Source: a virus
Taxonomy: Duplodnaviria > Heunggongvirae > Uroviricota > Caudoviricetes
Virus record (IMG/VR): IMGVR_UViG_2724679293_000031
Coordinates: 1 to 18,911 of that record
DNA: 18,911 nucleotides
Reading direction: 5' to 3' (one strand)
Shown here: in pieces, positions 8,957-18,911 of the stretch
Layout of the letters: every line of letters starts with the position of its first letter
How positions within the stretch are numbered: the stretch's first letter is position 1
Made by a program: the position numbers and the translations under genes
Notes under the pieces: generated by a model
Databases searched by the model: none
Told to the model about the DNA's origin: nothing
Seen by the model: only the letters and a program-made list of their open reading frames with translations

Positions 8957-9041
8957 TTCTGCAATTCCGGGACGTTACACTGCTCAGGCACCTTATAAAG
9001 CGGGTGCCGGGATTGGCGTCCTGAAATTCGCACATGCGCAT

Positions 9042-9066
9042 AACCGCGCTTCAGCGGTTTTTTTGC
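9042..9066 (+). terminator. intrinsic terminator upstream of rha
   Basis: AACCGC-GCTTCA-GCGGTT hairpin followed by six more T residues (9060-9065). Confidence 0.45.
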
Positions 9067-9227
9067 GCACGTTTCCTCACATCCAAATTATGGTGGGGCG
9101 TGCAGGGGCATCGAAAGATGCGCCGGGGTCATGTGCGACCGGTTACGCCAACCCTGTACGTCTCACCACCTCTGTGATTGGCGTCCCATGTGGTGAGTTT
9201 TCAAAATTCGCACATGAGGATGTCACT

Positions 9228-9994: not shown

Positions 9995-10830
9995 GTATGG
10001 AGCTGATGGTTAAAGCGATGAAAATTCGAGTGGGTAATCCATTGCGAAAACTGGTTCTGATCAAGCTGGCTGATAATGCCAGCGATCAGGGTGAGTGCTG
10101 GCCCAGCTACCAGCATATTGCTGACCAGTGCGAGATTAGCAAACGTTCTGTGATGAATCATATTGCGGCCCTTTGTGAGTCCGGGCTGGTAAAAAAAGTC
10201 ACCCGGAAAGGTGAAAAAGGTAACTCAAGTAATATCTATCTCCTTCATCTTGATGGTGCAGGAGATTCACTAGGGAGTAGTGCAAATAATTCACTATCTG
10301 GTGCAGCAAATTCACCAGGTAGTGCAGGAGTTGCACTAGGTAGTGCAGGAGTTGCACCAGGGGGTAGTGCAGGAGATTCACCCAGAACCAGTCACTCTTT
10401 TGAACCAGTCAAAGAACCAGTCAATGAACCAATAGCTGTTGGTGCATCTGCTGATGAGTCTGTGCGAGTTCGTTCAAACCGACCGGAATACTCTCCAGAG
10501 TTTGAGCAGGCATGGCTGGCATATCCCAAACGTGCTGGTGGCAATTCAAAATCTGCAGCCTTCAAAGCCTGGAAAGCCCGTTTGAATGAGGGGGTAAACC
10601 CCGAAACCATGCTGGAAGGTGTGAAACGCTACGCGGGCTGGGTATCTGCGATGGGTAACAGCGGCACACAATTTGTGAAACAGGCTGTCACGTTCTTTGG
10701 TCCGGATCGTCATTTCGAAGAATCCTGGGAAGTTCCTGCGGTATCTGTAGCCGGACGTGAGGACCCGTACTTCAAAGCCAGTTACGACAACGTGGACTAC
10801 AGCCAGATCCCGGCAGGATTCAGGGGGTGA
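9991..10830 (+). CDS. O-like replication initiation / replisome-organiser protein with HTH N-terminal domain
   Basis: GGAGG SD. N-terminal HTH typical of phage replication proteins, a Gly/Ser/Ala-rich linker encoded by tandem DNA repeats, and a conserved C-terminal region (…AWKARL…TFFGP…). Confidence 0.6.
   Translation: MSMELMVKAMKIRVGNPLRKLVLIKLADNASDQGECWPSYQHIADQCEISKRSVMNHIAALCESGLVKKVTRKGEKGNSSNIYLLHLDGAGDSLGSSANNSLSGAANSPGSAGVALGSAGVAPGGSAGDSPRTSHSFEPVKEPVNEPIAVGASADESVRVRSNRPEYSPEFEQAWLAYPKRAGGNSKSAAFKAWKARLNEGVNPETMLEGVKRYAGWVSAMGNSGTQFVKQAVTFFGPDRHFEESWEVPAVSVAGREDPYFKASYDNVDYSQIPAGFRG
10255..10433 (+). repeat. iteron-like tandem repeats inside the O-like gene (candidate phage ori)
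   Basis: About six tandem 21-24-bp units with core (A/G)GTGCAGGAG(A/T)T(T/G)CAC (10255-10383), followed by 3.5 copies of GAACCAGTCA (10385-10433). Confidence 0.45.
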
Positions 10831-10832
10831 TC

Positions 10833-11321
10833 ATGAGTCTTTTGAATGACGTTCAGAAATTCATTGAAGCCCATCCGGGGTGTACTTCCGGAGACATTGC
10901 GGATGCTTTTGCAGGTTACTCACGGCAGCGCGTTCTGCGGTCAGCAAGCAAGTTACGTCAGAGCGGGCGTGTGGCTCACCGTTGTGAAGGAGATACACGC
11001 AGACATTTCCCGCGCCTGACTGAGAGAGCGCAGGAACCGGAACCACAACCAGTTCGAGAAACCAGACCTGTGCGCAATTTCTATGTCGGCACTAACGATC
11101 CACGGGTGATTTTGTGCCTGACCCGCCAGGCGGAAGAACTGGAGTCCAGGGGCTTATACCGTCGTGCTGCAACGGTGTGGATGGCGGCATTCCGTGAAAG
11201 CCACTCCCAGCAAGAGCGAAACAATTTTCTGGCGCGTCGTGAGCGGTGCTTACGGAAAAGCAGCAAGCGCGCTGCATCGGGTGAAGAGTGGTATCTGTCA
11301 GGGAATTACGTGGGGGCTTAA
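10833..11321 (+). CDS. PerC-family (Pch-like) transcriptional regulator
   Basis: Start at ATG 10833 with GGGGG SD. ELESRGLYRRAATVW matches the recalled PerC-family signature (E-LE-x-KGLWRRAA-x-RW). Confidence 0.5.
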   Translation: MSLLNDVQKFIEAHPGCTSGDIADAFAGYSRQRVLRSASKLRQSGRVAHRCEGDTRRHFPRLTERAQEPEPQPVRETRPVRNFYVGTNDPRVILCLTRQAEELESRGLYRRAATVWMAAFRESHSQQERNNFLARRERCLRKSSKRAASGEEWYLSGNYVGA

Positions 11322-14169: not shown

Positions 14170-14186
14170 TTTTGTGGAGAAAGTTG

Positions 14187-14552
14187 ATGCGTGATATTCA
14201 AATGGTTCTTGAACGTTGGGGGGCATGGGTGGCAAATAATCACGAGGATGTCACCTGGTCGTCTATTGCTGCAGGATTTAAAGGACTAATCCCTTCAAAA
14301 GTAAAATCCCGCCCGCAATGTTGTGACGATGACGCGATGATCATTTGTGGATGCATGGCTCGCCTGAAAAAGAACAACAGCGATTTGCACGATTTATTAG
14401 TGGATTATTATGTAGGTGGTATGACTTTTATGGCGCTTGCCCGTAAACATGGGCGTTCTGATTGCTGGGTTGGGCGTTTATTGCAAAAGGCTGAAGGTGT
14501 AGTTGATGGCATGTTAATGATGTTAGAAATTGAGCTAGAGATGGATCGTTAG
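14187..14552 (+). CDS. late-gene antiterminator Q (phage 82 / QuuD-like family)
   Basis: Start at ATG 14187 with GGAG 7 nt upstream. [34 protein letters not shown]...[16 protein letters not shown]... matches recalled QuuD-type Q proteins. Confidence 0.65.
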
Positions 14553-14632: not shown

Positions 14633-15079
14633 TTAAGGTTTTAATTCATCAAGACGTTGTTGGATAGTGTTTTTGCTTGCGTTGTCTGTTATAGACATTT
14701 GTTGTACTTGCCCCATTGCCATTTGAGTTTCCATCCACATATCGGCCCACACTTTTGTATCGTTATTAACTTGAGCGATAGTAAATCTGACTTTTGATAC
14801 CGGGGTTGTTGAATAGGCATTGCCGATTAACATTTGTCCAAAAACAGCAGAGCCGCCTTCCAGTTCTTTACCACATATAACACTGCTGTTATCCGCGTTG
14901 TAAATTATCAACCCTCTACTATTGCAGTAATTCACAAGGGCATCTTTGACTTTATCTTTTGTCGTATTTTGATAAACCCCCTCAGGTTTTCCTGATTGAG
15001 TTTTCTTTATCAATGGTACGGAAGAAGTACAACCTGAAATGATAGTTGCGCTAAGTAATAGTACAGTCATTTTATTCAT
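14633..15079 (-). CDS. lipoprotein of unknown function (moron)
   Basis: N-terminal signal peptide with lipobox (…LLLSATIISGC-TSS); AT-rich gene in opposite orientation to the flanking phage genes. Confidence 0.65.
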   Translation of the reverse strand: MNKMTVLLLSATIISGCTSSVPLIKKTQSGKPEGVYQNTTKDKVKDALVNYCNSRGLIIYNADNSSVICGKELEGGSAVFGQMLIGNAYSTTPVSKVRFTIAQVNNDTKVWADMWMETQMAMGQVQQMSITDNASKNTIQQRLDELKP

Positions 15080-15351: not shown

Positions 15352-15549
15352 ATGCTGAAACAGCAGGATATGACAGAAACCGCCAGAGTTGTGTTTGATG
15401 AATTAAGCGTTACCGAACCGGCGACAGTCGGGGAGATTGCGCAGAATACTTACCTTTCACGCGAACGCTGCCAGTTAATACTGACCCAGCTTGTTATGGC
15501 GGGTCTGGCAGACTATCAGTGCGGTTGTTACAGACGCCTTCAGTCCTGA
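15352..15549 (+). CDS. FaeA/PapI-like small winged-helix regulator (tentative)
   Basis: 65-aa ORF; pattern ...TARVVFDELSVTEPATVGEIAQNTYLSRERCQLILTQLVMAGL resembles PapI/FaeA-family proteins (recalled). Confidence 0.45.
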   Translation: MLKQQDMTETARVVFDELSVTEPATVGEIAQNTYLSRERCQLILTQLVMAGLADYQCGCYRRLQS

Positions 15550-15683: not shown

Positions 15684-16397
15684 ATGGCTGTTGTCTGTTC
15701 AGTTATCATGGTTTGCTCCCCAATTAATATTTTTCTTGAAAAGGATACGTTGTCACTTAAGCCAGGCTCAGTTGTTCTGGCCACCAAATGCATCAGGGAG
15801 CTTTTCCTTATGCATTATGGCAAAGTTAAAATTGTCGATATAAGCGAATCCGTCGTAAGTCAATATCTGGAAAGTCAGCATAAGCTGACGAGGACTCGTC
15901 TGACTGACATTCCGCTTTACCTGTTGCTGGAACCCAACAATCCTGCGTTGGCTGCGGCTTTAATTACCAGCCAGGGATTTTCCGGAGAGGCCACGGATAT
16001 GTTTCTTATGATGGCCTGCCTGTCTCTGTTTGAAACAGATGAACGGATGTCATTGTTTTTAAGTGGATGTTTATCCAGCATAAGTGCCAAAGTCAGGGCG
16101 ATAATTCAGACAGATATATCAGCAAGCTGGACGCTTGGTGCGATTGCTCTACAGTTGCATATGAGTGAGAGTTTGTTAAAGACAAAACTGAAAAATGAAG
16201 GGGGCATGTTCAGTCGCTTGTTGCTGGAAGAGCGGATGCGTGTTGCTGTAAATATGTTATGTTCCCGGCATGGATATGGACAGGCTATAGCAGAAAAATG
16301 CGGTTATTCAAGCAGGTCCTACTTTATTTCTGTATTTCACCGCTATTATGGCTTCCCGCCAGACAGATATGTATCCAGGCAAGGGCTTGATTATTGA
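15684..16397 (+). CDS. AraC-family transcriptional regulator, AppY-like (no ligand-binding cupin evident)
   Basis: C-terminal AraC-type HTH (…WTLGAIALQLHMSESLLKTKLKNEGGMFSRLLLEERMRVAVNMLCS…GYSSRSYFISVFHRYYGFPP). N-terminus MAVVCSVIMVC resembles recalled AppY (MDYVCSVVFIC). Confidence 0.7.
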   Translation: MAVVCSVIMVCSPINIFLEKDTLSLKPGSVVLATKCIRELFLMHYGKVKIVDISESVVSQYLESQHKLTRTRLTDIPLYLLLEPNNPALAAALITSQGFSGEATDMFLMMACLSLFETDERMSLFLSGCLSSISAKVRAIIQTDISASWTLGAIALQLHMSESLLKTKLKNEGGMFSRLLLEERMRVAVNMLCSRHGYGQAIAEKCGYSSRSYFISVFHRYYGFPPDRYVSRQGLDY

Positions 16398-16425
16398 TTT
16401 TCATCTGATTATTATTTTTTGGCTC

Positions 16426-16501
16426 GGCCCTTTAGCTCAGTGGTGAGAGCGAGCGACTCATAATCGCCAGGTCGCTGGTTCAAATCCAGCAAGGGCCACC
16501 A
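16426..16501 (+). tRNA. tRNA with CAU anticodon, most likely tRNA-Ile2 (lysidine-type, ileX/ileZ-like); tRNA-Met not excluded
   Basis: 76 nt folds as a cloverleaf: acceptor GGCCCTT/AAGGGCC, anticodon loop CTCATAA, T-loop TTCAAAT, 3' CCA. Nearly matches the recalled E. coli ileX sequence. Confidence 0.85.
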
Positions 16502-16602
16502 TCACAAACCGCCATTAGCTTATCAGGAAGAGCAGACGACACGATAACAGGGTTGTTGGTGCGGGGGGCGGGTCCCCGATGGCGATCCATTATCGGTATT
16601 CA

Positions 16603-16679
16603 GCGTTGTTAGCTCAGCCGGACAGAGCAATTGCCTTCTAAGCAATCGGTCACTGGTTCGAATCCAGTACAGCGCGCCA
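16603..16679 (+). tRNA. tRNA-Arg (UCU anticodon; reads AGA)
   Basis: 77 nt cloverleaf: acceptor GCGTTGT/ACAGCGC, anticodon stem ATTGC/GCAAT with loop CTTCTAA, T-loop TTCGAAT, 3' CCA. Confidence 0.85.
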
Positions 16680-16789
16680 TATTCATTCTTCCAGATTCCT
16701 TCCGGCAGAGCCTTATACTGAAATATACCTGGCTCAGGATATTGTTGAAAATATTATATGTTTGTCAAAAATAAAAGTTCTGTTAAGTA

Positions 16790-17143
16790 TTGATTGAATA
16801 TTTGTTATACGGTCTAATGGTTTTTTCAGCATTAAATATTTATCATTCATATGGTGTGGGTAGAGTGAATATTGATGAGGCGTCGGGGTGTTTCATCCTT
16901 AGGCAGCGTATTGATATAGTCAATGCAGCACGAGCAAAGGCCTTCAGCCGTTTGACAGTTTTGTTCTGTACTCCTGATCGTCTTTCGGGAAGAGACGTTA
17001 TTATTCTGAATAGTGATGCTATACAGAGGGTTTGCGATGAGTTCATGGTTGCTAATTCAGAATTATTTGCTCTTGTTCAGGAGTACAACAGAATAGCCAG
17101 GACCTGTGGTATGGATGAACTTCGGATTACTCATCTGGGGTAG
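16790..17143 (+). CDS. hypothetical protein (117 aa), uncertain start and coding status
   Basis: ORF begins at TTG with no clear SD; internal ATG 16817 or GTG 16856/16865 are alternative starts. No family recognised. Confidence 0.3.
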   Translation: MIEYLLYGLMVFSALNIYHSYGVGRVNIDEASGCFILRQRIDIVNAARAKAFSRLTVLFCTPDRLSGRDVIILNSDAIQRVCDEFMVANSELFALVQEYNRIARTCGMDELRITHLG

Positions 17144-17534
17144 ATACATATCTGGATTATCACCTGTTACGGTAAAAAGTGATTGCTTACTGTTTTTGTG
17201 AATGGCATTGCAGCAGCCGGATAATGTCAGTGCTGGCTGACGGTGTGCTGGTGGCGGGTGTGGTGGTTGTTGCTTTCCCGTTGCTGAAAAAGAAAACGCC
17301 AGACTGTTAGCCGGGTATCAGTTAGCGGGAGAAATTTTTAAATACTTCACAATTCAGGCGGTTGACTGTTGTCTGGTTTGCGGGGAGTTTGTTAAAAGAA
17401 ACTGGCATGGTGAATCCCCCTGTGCGGAGGGGCAATCAGCGAGTAGGTATATGGGATAATCGCGGATTCAGGTGCTGGTACTGAATTCACCGGGAGGCAC
17501 CCGGCACCATGCAATGGCACATAGCGCCACTCTC

Positions 17535-17570
17535 CAGCCCCTCTCCGGAGGGGCTGTTTATATTGATTTT
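17535..17570 (+). terminator. intrinsic terminator
   Basis: CAGCCCCTC-TCCG-GAGGGGCTG hairpin followed by TTTATATTGATTTT. Confidence 0.45.
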
Positions 17571-17590
17571 GTCAGATGTGAGTAAACTCC

Positions 17591-17926
17591 TTATGGATTT
17601 TGTTGTTTTAGCCCATAAGGACATATTTGCAGAGTGCAACGGTTATTAAAGCATTCATTCAATACGTTATCTGTATTTGTAGGGCATTCCTGGCTGTTTT
17701 TGATTAAATTCCAGAATGTTTTATTGAATGGTACTATGTTGTAAATGGTTACAGGTAGCACTTTGTTATTGAGCATGATACCTGTGTGAGTCAGTGTAAA
17801 TATACTTTCAGGAGGTAAGAAAGCATCCGATTGATACCAGATTATTAATTTTATTTTACTCCATATGACTGAAAAAGATATTCCGCATGATGGCTGGATA
17901 ACTGTATCAATCACAATCCACTTCAT
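17591..17926 (-). CDS. hypothetical protein (111 aa) in AT-rich island
   Basis: AAGGAAAG SD 5 nt upstream of the ATG; local GC roughly one third by eye (not computed), contrasting with the flanking phage genes; five Cys residues; no family recognised. Confidence 0.45.
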
Positions 17927-18185
17927 TTACTTTCCTTGTTTATGCCTTGCTGGTGATGTTCTGAAAAGTATAAATGATATTTTTGAATTAAACCATAGAG
18001 CAGAATTATTTTTCTGATGTTGTTTATTGTTTATTTAAATACAGGGTGGTTTATATCTCGTCTTGTAGTTTATCCATGCATATCTGCTTGATAATCAGGT
18101 TTTTATTTAAGGTATGGTTTTGTGTTTTTTCTGTATTACATGTCAGGTATTTTAAAGAATTATTTTTCAGATGGTGGAAAGAACC

Positions 18186-18911
18186 ATGGCATTTAAACAC
18201 TATGATGTTGTCAGGGCGGCGTCGCCATCAGATCTTGCGGAAAAGCTGACACATAAACTGAAAGAGGGCTGGCAGCCGTTTGGTAGTCCGGTGGCCATAA
18301 CCCCTTATACTCTGATGCAGGCGATTACAGCAGAAGGTGATGTGGTGGTCAGTGGTGCAACTGAGCCGGATTGGTACTACGTCATCGTACTGGCCGGGCA
18401 GTCCAATGCCATGGCTTACGGTGAAGGGCTTCCGCTGCCGGATTCATACGATGCTCCGGATCCGCGCATTAAACAGCTGGCGCGCCGCAGTACAGTGACG
18501 CCGGGTGGGGCTGCCTGCAGATATAACGATATTATTCCGGCCGACCACTGCCTGCATGATGTGCAGGATATGAGTACGCTGAATCATCCGAAGGCAGACC
18601 TGAGCAAAGGGCAGTACGGCTGTGTCGGCCAGGGCTTACATATTGCCAAAAAACTGCTTCCGTATATCCCGAATAACGCGGGGATCCTGCTGGCACCATG
18701 CTGTCGTGGTGGTTCGGCATTCACCCAGGGCGCGGAGGGGACATTCAGTGCGGACACGGGGGCCAGCCAGGATTCGGCACGCTGGGGTGTGGGTAAACCG
18801 TTATATCAGGACCTGATTGCGCGCACTAAAGCTGCATTACAGAAGAACCCGAAAAATGTGTTGCTGGCGGTGTGCTGGATGCAGGGAGAGTTTGACATGA
18901 GCGCCGCCACC
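18186..18911 (+). CDS. prophage sialate O-acetylesterase NanS-p-like (DUF1737 N-terminal domain plus SASA-type esterase), 3'-partial
   Basis: Frame open from ATG 18186 to the window end (242 codons). N-terminus MAFKHYDVVRAASPSDLAEKLTHKLKEGWQPFG resembles DUF1737; GQSN esterase motif (VLAGQSNAMAYGEG). Missing from the ORF track because no stop falls inside the window. Confidence 0.7.
   Translation, partial: MAFKHYDVVRAASPSDLAEKLTHKLKEGWQPFGSPVAITPYTLMQAITAEGDVVVSGATEPDWYYVIVLAGQSNAMAYGEGLPLPDSYDAPDPRIKQLARRSTVTPGGAACRYNDIIPADHCLHDVQDMSTLNHPKADLSKGQYGCVGQGLHIAKKLLPYIPNNAGILLAPCCRGGSAFTQGAEGTFSADTGASQDSARWGVGKPLYQDLIARTKAALQKNPKNVLLAVCWMQGEFDMSAAT

What the first reader, a model, noticed from the sequence alone, without database searches (positions are those of the whole stretch)
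16680..18185. Unknown cargo genes at the locus that carries stx in Stx phages
The arrangement Q, phage tRNAs (Ile2-CAU, Arg-UCU), cargo, nanS-p matches the late-region layout in which Stx phages carry stxAB between the tRNAs and nanS-p. No Shiga toxin genes are present here. The slot instead holds a start-ambiguous 117-aa ORF (16790-17143), about 400 nt with no long ORF that ends in a strong terminator (17535-17570), and a 111-aa Cys-containing ORF with a good SD on the opposite strand in very AT-rich DNA (17591-17926). None matches a family I recognise, so this is the most likely place for an undescribed virulence, defence or superinfection-exclusion function.
Basis: partly seen in the sequence, partly recalled or inferred. 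Interest (0 to 1): 0.65.

Follow-up and report, generated by a model that had tools for sequence, protein, structure and literature searches.

The report
Known prophage stress genes, not new cargo
The stretch between the phage tRNAs and nanS-p is a widespread lambdoid-prophage module made of the known RpoS stabiliser IraL, the known small RNA STnc100, a DUF3927 mini-protein and one real but uncharacterised 92-residue protein, so it is largely ordinary.

Summary
The layout (Q, tRNA-Ile2, tRNA-Arg, cargo, nanS-p, no stx) is real, but "matches no family" is wrong for most of the interval.

- **111-aa minus-strand ORF (17591-17926).** This is IraL, the characterised RssB anti-adaptor of UPEC CFT073. 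It is 98% identical in protein and sits in the same gene context.
- **The "400 nt without an ORF".** It holds a 43-aa DUF3927 gene (17179-17310) and a full-length copy of the Rfam sRNA STnc100 (17376-17565, 132 bits). The noted terminator is that sRNA's own terminator.
- **The 117-aa ORF.** It is really a 92-aa gene starting at GTG 16865. It is under purifying selection (dN/dS about 0.26), belongs to a tiny family (phrog_2873) of unknown function, and is unannotated in RefSeq genomes.
- **Comparison with a Stx2a phage.** STnc100, an IraM-family gene and nanS-p are backbone shared with Stx phages. Only 16688-17346 (ORF92 plus DUF3927) lies where stx2AB would be.
- **Distribution.** At least 80% of 16400-18300 is found in 863 of 5,426 complete E. 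coli genomes.

Verdict: already known and low interest. The only open item is ORF92.

The parts
14172..14552 (+). Q antiterminator (context, upstream boundary of the late region)
   Evidence: PF06530 Phage_antitermQ, E 2.1e-51. PGAP 'antiterminator Q family protein' in a 100% identical genome.
15684..16397 (+). AraC-family regulator, YdeO/GadX-like (context). Possibly of the prophage Psr/PatE kind; not tested.
   Evidence: HTH_AraC/HTH_18. Best NCBIfam match is YdeO, 4e-31, below its cut-off. phrog_1450. In L005 and L008 a homologue is followed within about 20 nt by the ORF92 homologue.
16426..16501 (+). tRNA with CAU anticodon (ileZ-type tRNA-Ile2)
   Evidence: ARAGORN. Rfam tRNA 72.5 bits. 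PGAP tRNA-Ile.
16511..16587 (+). Degenerate remnant of the middle tRNA-Arg (argN) of the ileZ-argN-argO trio
   Evidence: Aligns to the intact second tRNA of CFT073 and of a Stx2a phage, but the anticodon-arm region is scrambled. Not called by ARAGORN or Rfam.
16603..16679 (+). tRNA-Arg (UCU), argO-type
   Evidence: ARAGORN. Rfam 68 bits.
16865..17143 (+). ORF92: real protein-coding gene of unknown function (phrog_2873). Together with DUF3927 it occupies the exact stx-equivalent slot 16688-17346.
   Evidence: phrog_2873, 3.8e-70. Relatives of 91-95 aa begin at this position. The same GTGAATATTGATGA start follows an AGGAG in L007, where PGAP annotates 92 aa. dN/dS is 0.26 in three pairwise comparisons against 0.8-1.2 in the other frames. 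AF2 pLDDT 88.7: helix, beta-hairpin, helix. No Pfam, NCBIfam, PADLOC or PDB match.
17179..17310 (+). DUF3927 small hydrophobic protein (43 aa; 'TciB-like' in PHROGs)
   Evidence: PF13064, 95.6 bits, E 1.7e-27. phrog_1470. PGAP WP_000562553.1.
17376..17565 (+). STnc100 sRNA (Rfam RF02076), full length. Its 3' hairpin 17535-17556 plus T tract is the 'strong terminator' of the finding.
   Evidence: 132.4 bits against a gathering score of 47, model positions 1-206 of 206. Terminator scan. 100% identical to the CFT073 copy. Same position downstream of stx2B in a Stx2a phage.
17591..17926 (-). iraL: IraM-family RssB anti-adaptor (111 aa)
   Evidence: NF007393, 161.8 bits (cut-off 121). 98% aa and 98.8% nt identity to CFT073 IraL; 63% aa to K-12 IraM. 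PDB 8TWD IraM, E 7e-32. PGAP 'anti-adapter protein IraM'.
17927..18000 (-). iraL 5' UTR and promoter. TSS equivalent at 17959 and TATACT -10. This allele has a 1-nt deletion in the predicted -35/spacer relative to CFT073.
   Evidence: The 5'-RACE sequence ACATCACCAGCAAGGCATAAACAAGGAAA (PMC4045071) is found at 17959 going down. Alignment with CFT073. 97.7% identity over -100..+33. This allele is in about 162 of 1,446 genomes.
18186..18911 (+). 5' part of the nanS-p-type sialate O-acetylesterase (downstream boundary)
   Evidence: DUF1737 3.2e-16 and SASA 1.3e-9. PGAP 'SASA family carbohydrate esterase'.

Best explanation
Window 16680-18185 is a common mosaic 'moron' cluster of lambdoid prophages, lying between the late-region tRNAs and nanS-p. 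It has four elements.

1. **ORF92 (16865-17143).** A small cytoplasmic helical-hairpin protein of unknown function.
2. **A 43-aa DUF3927 membrane mini-protein (17179-17310).** Elements 1 and 2 together lie exactly where Stx2 phages carry stx2AB. They sit on the late-gene strand, so they would be transcribed with the late operon under Q antitermination (inferred).
3. **STnc100 (17376-17565).** A multicopy prophage sRNA family; the copy next to stx2 is reported to bind Hfq (literature). Its intrinsic terminator ends any local rightward transcript in the lysogen. Target genes are not established.
4. **iraL (17591-17926, opposite strand).** It is expressed from its own sigma-70 promoter in the lysogen. 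Its product binds the RssB adaptor, so sigma-S is not handed to ClpXP. This raises RpoS levels during exponential growth (shown for the 98%-identical CFT073 protein; inferred here).

The net effect on the host is lysogenic conversion of stress regulation, not a toxin or a defence system.
For: **Identity of iraL**
- NCBIfam NF007393, 161.8 bits, above its cut-off of 121.
- 109 of 111 residues identical to CFT073 IraL and 98.8% nt identity.
- The whole stretch 16412-18405 is 97.1% identical and collinear with the CFT073 potB prophage.
- The 5'-RACE transcript start sequence from PMC4045071 is present.
- IraL function (RssB binding, RpoS stabilisation in log phase) comes from PMC4045071. The structure and mechanism of the homologue IraM come from PMC10844676 and PDB 8TWD.

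**STnc100**
- 132.4 bits over the full model.
- Homologues are transcribed in EDL933, with a Northern blot for one copy (PMC5331693).
- An Hfq-binding sRNA, EcOnc27, overlaps the copy downstream of stx2B (PMC12711010).
- A copy lies 75 nt downstream of stx2 (PMC12370729).

**DUF3927:**

**ORF92 is coding:**

**Backbone versus slot:** a Stx2a phage has tRNAs, stx2AB, STnc100, an iraM-like gene and nanS-p in that order. Homology to the window breaks at 16687/17347.

**Distribution:**
Against: - Nothing was measured in this strain.
- This iraL promoter allele has a 1-nt deletion in the predicted -35/spacer and a change at -1 relative to the characterised CFT073 promoter. It is the minority allele (about 162 of 1,446 genomes), so expression may differ.
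- The 5' end and promoter of this STnc100 copy are not defined. No convincing sigma-70 promoter lies just upstream (own reading of the sequence), so it may be a processed 3' UTR rather than an independent gene.
- ORF92 has a weak Shine-Dalgarno sequence here and no known function.
- The DUF3927 function is only a database label.
Confidence: 0.88

Rival explanations
1. One reading: the slot carries an undescribed virulence, defence or superinfection-exclusion function in place of stx.
For: The interval is syntenic with the stx locus. ORF92 and DUF3927 lie exactly where stx2AB would be and have no demonstrated function. ORF92 is under purifying selection and is unannotated in RefSeq genomes.
Against:
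- No PADLOC hit for any ORF in the interval.
- ORF92 relatives sit in many non-Stx lambdoid prophages as ORF92-TerB-DUF3927-holin, so this is a common late-region element rather than special cargo.
- The 659-bp slot content is in 1,183 of 5,426 genomes.
- The ORF92 fold is a generic helical hairpin with no significant structural match.
Confidence: 0.07
2. The iraL copy here is a silent or weakened allele, so the locus has little effect on RpoS in this host.
For: There is a 1-nt deletion in the predicted -35/spacer, G to A at -1 and two changes in the 5' UTR relative to CFT073. The allele is in the minority. The IraL paper itself notes uncertainty about expression of a -35 point-mutant copy in JJ1886. 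It also reports iraL to be under-represented in EHEC/STEC.
Against: The coding sequence is intact with only 2 of 111 substitutions. The -10 TATACT, the TSS context and the Shine-Dalgarno sequence are kept. The allele persists unchanged in about 160 genomes from several sources.
Confidence: 0.15
3. The 111-aa protein behaves as K-12 IraM (PhoP-dependent, induced by Mg2+ starvation, contacting both RssB domains) rather than as IraL.
For: PGAP and NCBIfam name it IraM. A PhoP-box-like sequence, TGTTTATTGTTTATTTA (1 mismatch), lies at 18021-18037, 62-78 nt upstream of the TSS.
Against: It is 63% identical to IraM against 98% to IraL. The upstream region cannot be aligned with K-12 iraM. The motif count in the window is not above chance (10 found against 5.0 expected; 7 of 200 shuffles reach 10), and the site lies in AT-rich DNA. 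IraL and IraM were shown to differ in regulation and in how they bind RssB (PMC4045071).
Confidence: 0.05
4. The STnc100 match is not an independent sRNA gene. It is the structured, terminator-bearing 3' end of the ORF92-DUF3927 transcript, and also a recombination junction between moron modules.
For: No good sigma-70 promoter lies directly upstream (own reading of 17340-17400). Homology with the Stx2a phage resumes 29 nt before the Rfam start. Copies flank or follow different cargos: two copies in phage vB_EcoS-640R1 (L002), and one isolated plus four tandem copies in L008.
Against: Homologues accumulate as discrete RNAs (Northern blot of STnc100_4, PMC5331693), and an Hfq-binding sRNA overlaps the stx2-adjacent copy (PMC12711010). 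Being 3'-UTR-derived and being a functional sRNA are not mutually exclusive.
Confidence: 0.25

Closest known systems
IraL (c1429) of uropathogenic E. coli CFT073, potB prophage (Hryckowian et al. 2014, PMC4045071)
   Same: 98% protein and 98.8% nt identity. Same neighbours (tRNAs, DUF3927, STnc100, iraL on the opposite strand, DUF1737/esterase gene, holin). Same transcript 5' end sequence.
   Different: Two residue changes (I64V-equivalent and N110S-equivalent positions). A 1-nt deletion in the predicted -35/spacer. The middle tRNA is degenerate. A full nanS-p is present instead of a truncated DUF1737 gene, and there is no IS200.
IraM of E. coli K-12 (b1160; PDB 8TWD with RssB)
   Same: Same family (NF007393). 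The PmrD-like N-terminal 78 residues align at E 7e-32. Cluster III contact residues I61 and Y62 are kept.
   Different: 63% identity, a different and unalignable promoter region, and 4 extra C-terminal residues. Regulation and RssB contacts were reported to differ from IraL.
stx2 locus of Stx2a-converting phages (e.g. Stx2_EH2246, LC567837)
   Same: The order Q, tRNAs, [slot], STnc100, IraM-family gene (minus strand), nanS-p, holin is the same. The tRNA block is 88% and the STnc100-to-nanS-p block 77% identical.
   Different: The slot holds ORF92 plus DUF3927 (659 bp) instead of stx2AB (1,368 bp). An AraC gene replaces the DNA methylase upstream of the tRNAs. The IraM-family gene is a different type (72% aa to this one, 65% to K-12 IraM).
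STnc100 (Rfam RF02076) / PasD sRNA superfamily of lambdoid prophages
   Same: Full-length, high-scoring match with the family's multi-stem core and terminator. Same position upstream of the sialate esterase gene as described for PasD2, and downstream of stx2B.
   Different: Only 69% nt identity to the Stx2a-phage copy, so seed and target specificity may differ. Whether it is nearer to PasD was not tested.
ORF92-TerB-DUF3927-holin module of other lambdoid prophages (L007, L009-L011)
   Same: Homologous ORF92 (38-63% aa) followed by DUF3927, just upstream of the lysis genes.
   Different: No TerB-like gene here. STnc100, iraL and nanS-p are intercalated before the holin.

Membership tests
IraM/IraL family of RssB anti-adaptors | Sequence membership: score above the curated cut-off of NCBIfam NF007393 | tested here: met
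   161.8 bits against a cut-off of 121, covering residues 1-110.
IraL (as defined in PMC4045071: at least 95% identity over the whole coding region; no overlap with iraM matches) | At least 95% nt identity to CFT073 iraL over 100% of the CDS | tested here: met
   98.8% over 336 of 336 nt, against 71.3% to K-12 iraM.
IraL | Promoter and upstream region at least 96% identical to CFT073, with the mapped TSS | tested here: met
   97.7% over -100..+33, and the 5'-RACE sequence is present. However, there is a 1-nt deletion in the predicted -35/spacer.
IraL | Binds the RssB N-terminal domain and stabilises sigma-S in exponential phase | not testable with these tools
   Shown only for the CFT073 protein (PMC4045071).
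STnc100 (RF02076) | Covariance-model score above the gathering threshold over the full model | tested here: met
   132.4 bits against 47; model positions 1-206 of 206.
STnc100 (RF02076) | Rho-independent terminator at the 3' end | tested here: met
   9-bp stem with 7 GC pairs and a T-rich tail, 17535-17566.
STnc100 (RF02076) | Expressed as a discrete, Hfq-associated RNA | not testable with these tools
   Literature on homologues only.
DUF3927 (PF13064) | Pfam gathering score | tested here: met
   95.6 bits against 25.
Stx-converting phage stx locus | stxA and stxB genes between the tRNAs and nanS-p | tested here: not met
   No significant tblastn match to Stx2A/B in the window (best E 0.034, outside the locus). 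The stx2AB segment is replaced.
Stx-converting phage stx locus | Flanking backbone: ileZ/arg tRNAs upstream; STnc100, IraM-family gene and nanS-p downstream | tested here: met
   88% and 77% identical blocks.
Anti-phage defence systems (PADLOC-DB) | Any protein of the interval matching a defence-system model | tested here: not met
   No hits for ORF117/92, IraL or DUF3927 at E up to 0.1.
Psr/PatE prophage AraC regulators (for the neighbouring gene 15684-16397) | Close sequence identity to PsrA (Z1789) or PsrB (Z2104) | not tested
   Reference sequences could not be retrieved. Only AraC/YdeO-like similarity was shown.

The most novel reading that the evidence does not exclude
ORF92 (16865-17143) is unannotated in over a thousand RefSeq E. 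coli genomes, yet it is under purifying selection and sits exactly where stx2AB sits in Stx phages. It could be a functional lysogenic-conversion or late-gene accessory factor. One possibility is a small coiled-coil protein that works with the DUF3927/TerB-like membrane proteins on lysis timing or exclusion. Another is a partner of the Psr-like AraC regulator that directly precedes its homologue in other prophages.
Probability: 0.1. Interest if true: 0.45.

Novelty: already known. Interest (0 to 1): 0.15.

Why it matters
For annotation, it shows that this 'empty stx slot' is not empty of known biology. It carries an RpoS-stabilising anti-adaptor and an sRNA family reported to bind Hfq, both of which also flank stx2 in genuine Stx phages. 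Prophages of this type therefore probably rewire host stress regulation whether or not they carry toxin.

The practical gain is small:
- a corrected gene model for a conserved, systematically unannotated 92-aa gene;
- a clear definition of the real stx-equivalent slot (16688-17346);
- a minority iraL promoter allele that could be tested for altered RpoS control.

Tried and rejected
**ORF117/92: searches that found nothing**
- Pfam, NCBIfam and PADLOC scans gave no hits.
- A profile search of PDB sequences gave only a chance hit at E 1.2.
- Foldseek against PDB with a confident model (pLDDT 88.7) gave only non-significant coiled-coil or prefoldin-beta-like matches (best E 0.05). No function was inferred from them.
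- The AFDB50 fold library was unavailable.

The single-protein scan returned only one E. coli locus, so it added nothing on taxonomic spread.
- The literature search for TciA/TciB returned only Trypanosoma papers. The DUF3927 search gave nothing useful.
- The attempt to test Psr membership of the AraC gene failed. The EDL933 record and the PsrB paper are not held, and the homologue search gave no informative names.

**Ideas considered and dropped**
- That the prophage AraC regulator activates iraL by analogy with AppY. [quoted passage not shown]
- PhoP-box control of iraL. There is one 1-mismatch site, but the motif count is not above chance and there is no similarity to the K-12 iraM upstream region, so this is inconclusive.
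- The PGAP pseudo-CDS at 17395-17520 (minus strand). It lies wholly inside STnc100 and has only a chance-level PHROG hit, so I treated it as an annotation artefact.
Full report
**1. What is at the coordinates**

- Q antiterminator at 14172-14552 (PF06530).
- A CAU-anticodon tRNA at 16426-16501 and tRNA-Arg(UCU) at 16603-16679. PGAP calls the first tRNA-Ile in a 100% identical genome.
- A 117-aa ORF at 16790-17143 and a 111-aa minus-strand ORF at 17591-17926.
- An intrinsic terminator at 17535-17556 followed by a T tract.
- AT-rich DNA, 29-35% GC, over 17600-18200.
- A DUF1737+SASA esterase (nanS-p type) starting at 18186.

No Shiga toxin gene is present. tblastn with Stx2A and Stx2B gives only chance matches elsewhere in the window.

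**2. The 111-aa ORF is IraL**

- It scores 161.8 bits against NCBIfam NF007393 'anti-adapter protein IraM' (cut-off 121).
- It matches the crystallised IraM fragment, PDB 8TWD, at E 7e-32.
- RefSeq annotates the identical sequence as an anti-adapter protein.
- I fetched the potB prophage of uropathogenic strain CFT073, where IraL was discovered (PMC4045071). It has the same order: Q, tRNAs, DUF3927, a pseudo-CDS, the IraM-family gene on the opposite strand, DUF1737, holin.
- The window is collinear with it at 97.1% identity over 16412-18405.
- The protein differs from CFT073 IraL at 2 of 111 residues. It is 63% identical to K-12 IraM.
- The coding DNA is 98.8% identical to iraL and 71% to iraM. 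That meets the paper's own definition of an iraL match (at least 95% over the whole CDS).

The 5'-RACE transcript start reported for iraL (ACATCACCAGCAAGGCATAAACAAGGAAA...) is present. This places the TSS equivalent at 17959 on the minus strand, with a TATACT -10 and an AAGGA Shine-Dalgarno sequence.

From the literature:
- IraM has a PmrD-like fold and blocks the 4-5-5 face of RssB.
- iraL mRNA rises on a shift to 37 C, and IraL levels rise in a fur mutant of CFT073.

One difference may matter. This allele lacks one base in the predicted -35/spacer (TTTACATTC becomes TTTA-ATTC). It also has G to A at -1 and two changes in the 5' UTR. About 162 of 1,446 iraL-carrying complete genomes share this 91-bp promoter sequence at 99% identity or more; the rest mostly show the one-base-longer form.

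**3. The '400 nt with no long ORF' holds two recognisable elements**

- A 43-aa ORF at 17179-17310 is a DUF3927 protein (PF13064, 95.6 bits). PHROGs labels the family 'TciB-like', and PGAP annotates it.
- The stretch 17376-17565 matches Rfam STnc100 (RF02076) over the whole model at 132.4 bits against a gathering score of 47.

STnc100 is a multicopy prophage sRNA family:
- Eleven copies are listed for EDL933 in an RNA-seq/Ribo-seq study, most with mapped transcriptome reads, and one was confirmed by Northern blot (PMC5331693).
- A copy lies 75 nt downstream of stx2B in Stx2 phages (PMC12370729).
- That copy overlaps the Hfq-binding sRNA EcOnc27 (PMC12711010).
- A 2026 preprint relates STnc100 to the EPEC sRNAs PasD1 and PasD2, which lie next to the sialate esterase gene.

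The published qPCR primers for STnc_100 both match the window by my reading of the sequence. Its targets and its own promoter remain undefined. I found no convincing sigma-70 promoter immediately upstream, so it may be processed from a longer transcript.

The PGAP pseudo-CDS at 17395-17520 (minus strand) lies entirely within this RNA. It is most simply an annotation artefact.

**4. The 117-aa ORF is a real gene of 92 aa**

- It matches phrog_2873 (unknown function) at 3.8e-70. Nothing matches in Pfam, NCBIfam or PADLOC.
- Two protein searches (a word-seeded search of 5.8 billion sequences and a full HMMER scan of 1.84 billion cluster representatives) found only a small family: 17 and 20 entries.
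- The more distant members (32-64% identity, 91-95 aa) all begin at the residue corresponding to V26, the GTG at 16865.
- In E. coli SA31-1 the homologue is annotated as 92 aa. The same GTGAATATTGATGA start is preceded there by AGGAG.
- In more distant loci, stop codons lie 1-3 codons upstream of the start.
- Nei-Gojobori dN/dS is 0.26 in each of three pairwise comparisons among three lineages. The same alignments read in the other two frames give 0.8-1.2.
- The 26 extra N-terminal codons of the 117-aa reading give 0.68.

So the gene is 16865-17143. RefSeq does not annotate it in the identical genome, in CFT073, or under the sampled matches among 1,183 genomes that hold the 659-bp segment.

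AlphaFold2 with a 9-sequence alignment gives a confident model (pLDDT 88.7). It has a long helix (3-34), a short beta-hairpin (39-46) and a long helix (50-81). Foldseek against the PDB finds only non-significant hits to prefoldin beta subunits and generic coiled coils (best E 0.05). I therefore draw no function from the fold beyond 'small soluble helical hairpin, probably acting through protein contacts'.

**5. Where the stx-equivalent slot really is**

A Stx2a-converting phage (LC567837) has this order: Q, a 65-aa ORF, a DNA methylase, three tRNAs, stx2A, stx2B, STnc100 (153.8 bits), an iraM-like gene on the minus strand, nanS-p, holin.

The window aligns to it in two blocks:
- 16422-16687, the tRNAs, at 88% identity.
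- 17347-18895, covering STnc100, the anti-adaptor gene and nanS-p, at 77% identity.

Between those blocks the phage has 1,368 bp with stx2AB and the window has 659 bp with ORF92 and DUF3927.

STnc100, the IraM-family gene and nanS-p are therefore common backbone of Stx and non-Stx phages. Only ORF92 plus DUF3927 are 'in place of' stx.

They are not special to this locus either:
- ORF92 homologues occur as ORF92-TerB-DUF3927-holin in other lambdoid prophages.
- They also occur as AraC-ORF92-small ORF-STnc100 in others.

**6. Distribution**

- At least 80% of 16400-18300 is found in 863 of 5,426 complete E. coli genomes.
- iraL-type genes at 95% identity or more occur in about 1,400 records. Some IraM-family gene occurs in 4,758 genomes.

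**7. How it most likely works**

Shown by sequence identity plus literature: iraL is an independently transcribed gene lying antisense to the late operon. Its product sequesters RssB and so raises RpoS in growing lysogens.

Inferred:
- ORF92, DUF3927 and STnc100 lie on the late strand. They would be transcribed from PR' under Q antitermination.
- In the lysogen, any local transcript would end at the STnc100 terminator.
- Late transcription running antisense through iraL would be expected to dampen it on induction.

Not known: the targets of this STnc100 variant (only 69% identical to the Stx2-phage copy), and the functions of ORF92 and DUF3927.

**8. Verdict**

The interval is a known, widespread prophage module. 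Residual novelty is confined to a small conserved hypothetical gene that annotation pipelines miss. Interest is low.

Noticed in passing
window 16511-16587: Degenerate remnant of the middle tRNA-Arg (argN) of the ileZ-argN-argO trio. The acceptor and T-arm ends align with CFT073 and a Stx2a phage, but the anticodon-arm region is scrambled. Neither ARAGORN nor Rfam calls it.
   Followed up: partly
window 17960-18000 (minus strand): This iraL promoter allele lacks one base in the predicted -35/spacer relative to the experimentally mapped CFT073 promoter, and has G to A at -1. About 162 of 1,446 genomes share it. The effect on expression is unknown.
   Followed up: partly
window 15684-16397: YdeO/GadX-like AraC-family regulator between Q and the tRNAs. 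In diverged prophages (L005, L008) its homologue is followed within about 20 nt by the ORF92 homologue, which suggests a linked pair. It may belong to the PsrA/PsrB/PatE group that controls acid resistance and T3SS in EHEC. I could not test this.
   Followed up: partly
window 8988-9064 and 9086-9173: Rfam matches to isrK (62.3 bits) and C4 antisense RNA (75.1 bits), side by side in the early/immunity region of the prophage.
   Followed up: no
window 17395-17520 (minus strand): RefSeq annotates a partial 'hypothetical protein' pseudogene here, in the identical genome and in CFT073. It lies wholly inside the STnc100 RNA on the opposite strand and is probably an annotation artefact.
   Followed up: partly
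window 18021-18037: PhoP-box-like direct repeat TGTTTATTGTTTATTTA (1 mismatch), 62-78 nt upstream of the iraL TSS and in reverse orientation. The motif count in the window is not above chance and the region is AT-rich.
   Followed up: partly
L006 5385-5708 (Stx2a phage Stx2_EH2246, LC567837): Genuine Stx2a phages carry a third IraM-family type (107 aa; 72% identical to this IraL, 65% to K-12 IraM) between the STnc100 copy downstream of stx2B and nanS-p. I found no experimental work on this variant in the papers read.
   Followed up: partly
L008 2667-2879 and 4639-5618; L002 4428-4621 and 4897-5085: STnc100 can be multiplied within one late region. E. coli JNE120393 has one isolated copy plus four tandem copies between the ORF92 homologue and the esterase gene. 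Phage vB_EcoS-640R1 has two copies. This suggests the element also serves as a junction or recombination site between moron modules.
   Followed up: no
window 14633-15079 (minus strand) and 15352-15549: A predicted 148-aa lipoprotein-like ORF (phrog_3152, unknown function) lies on the opposite strand directly after Q. A conserved 65-aa winged-helix-like ORF (phrog_331) follows and is also present after Q in the Stx2a phage.
   Followed up: no
window about 10499-10993: PerC-family transcriptional regulator gene in the early region. A second PerC-family gene lies beyond the lysis genes in the same prophage of the identical genome.
   Followed up: no
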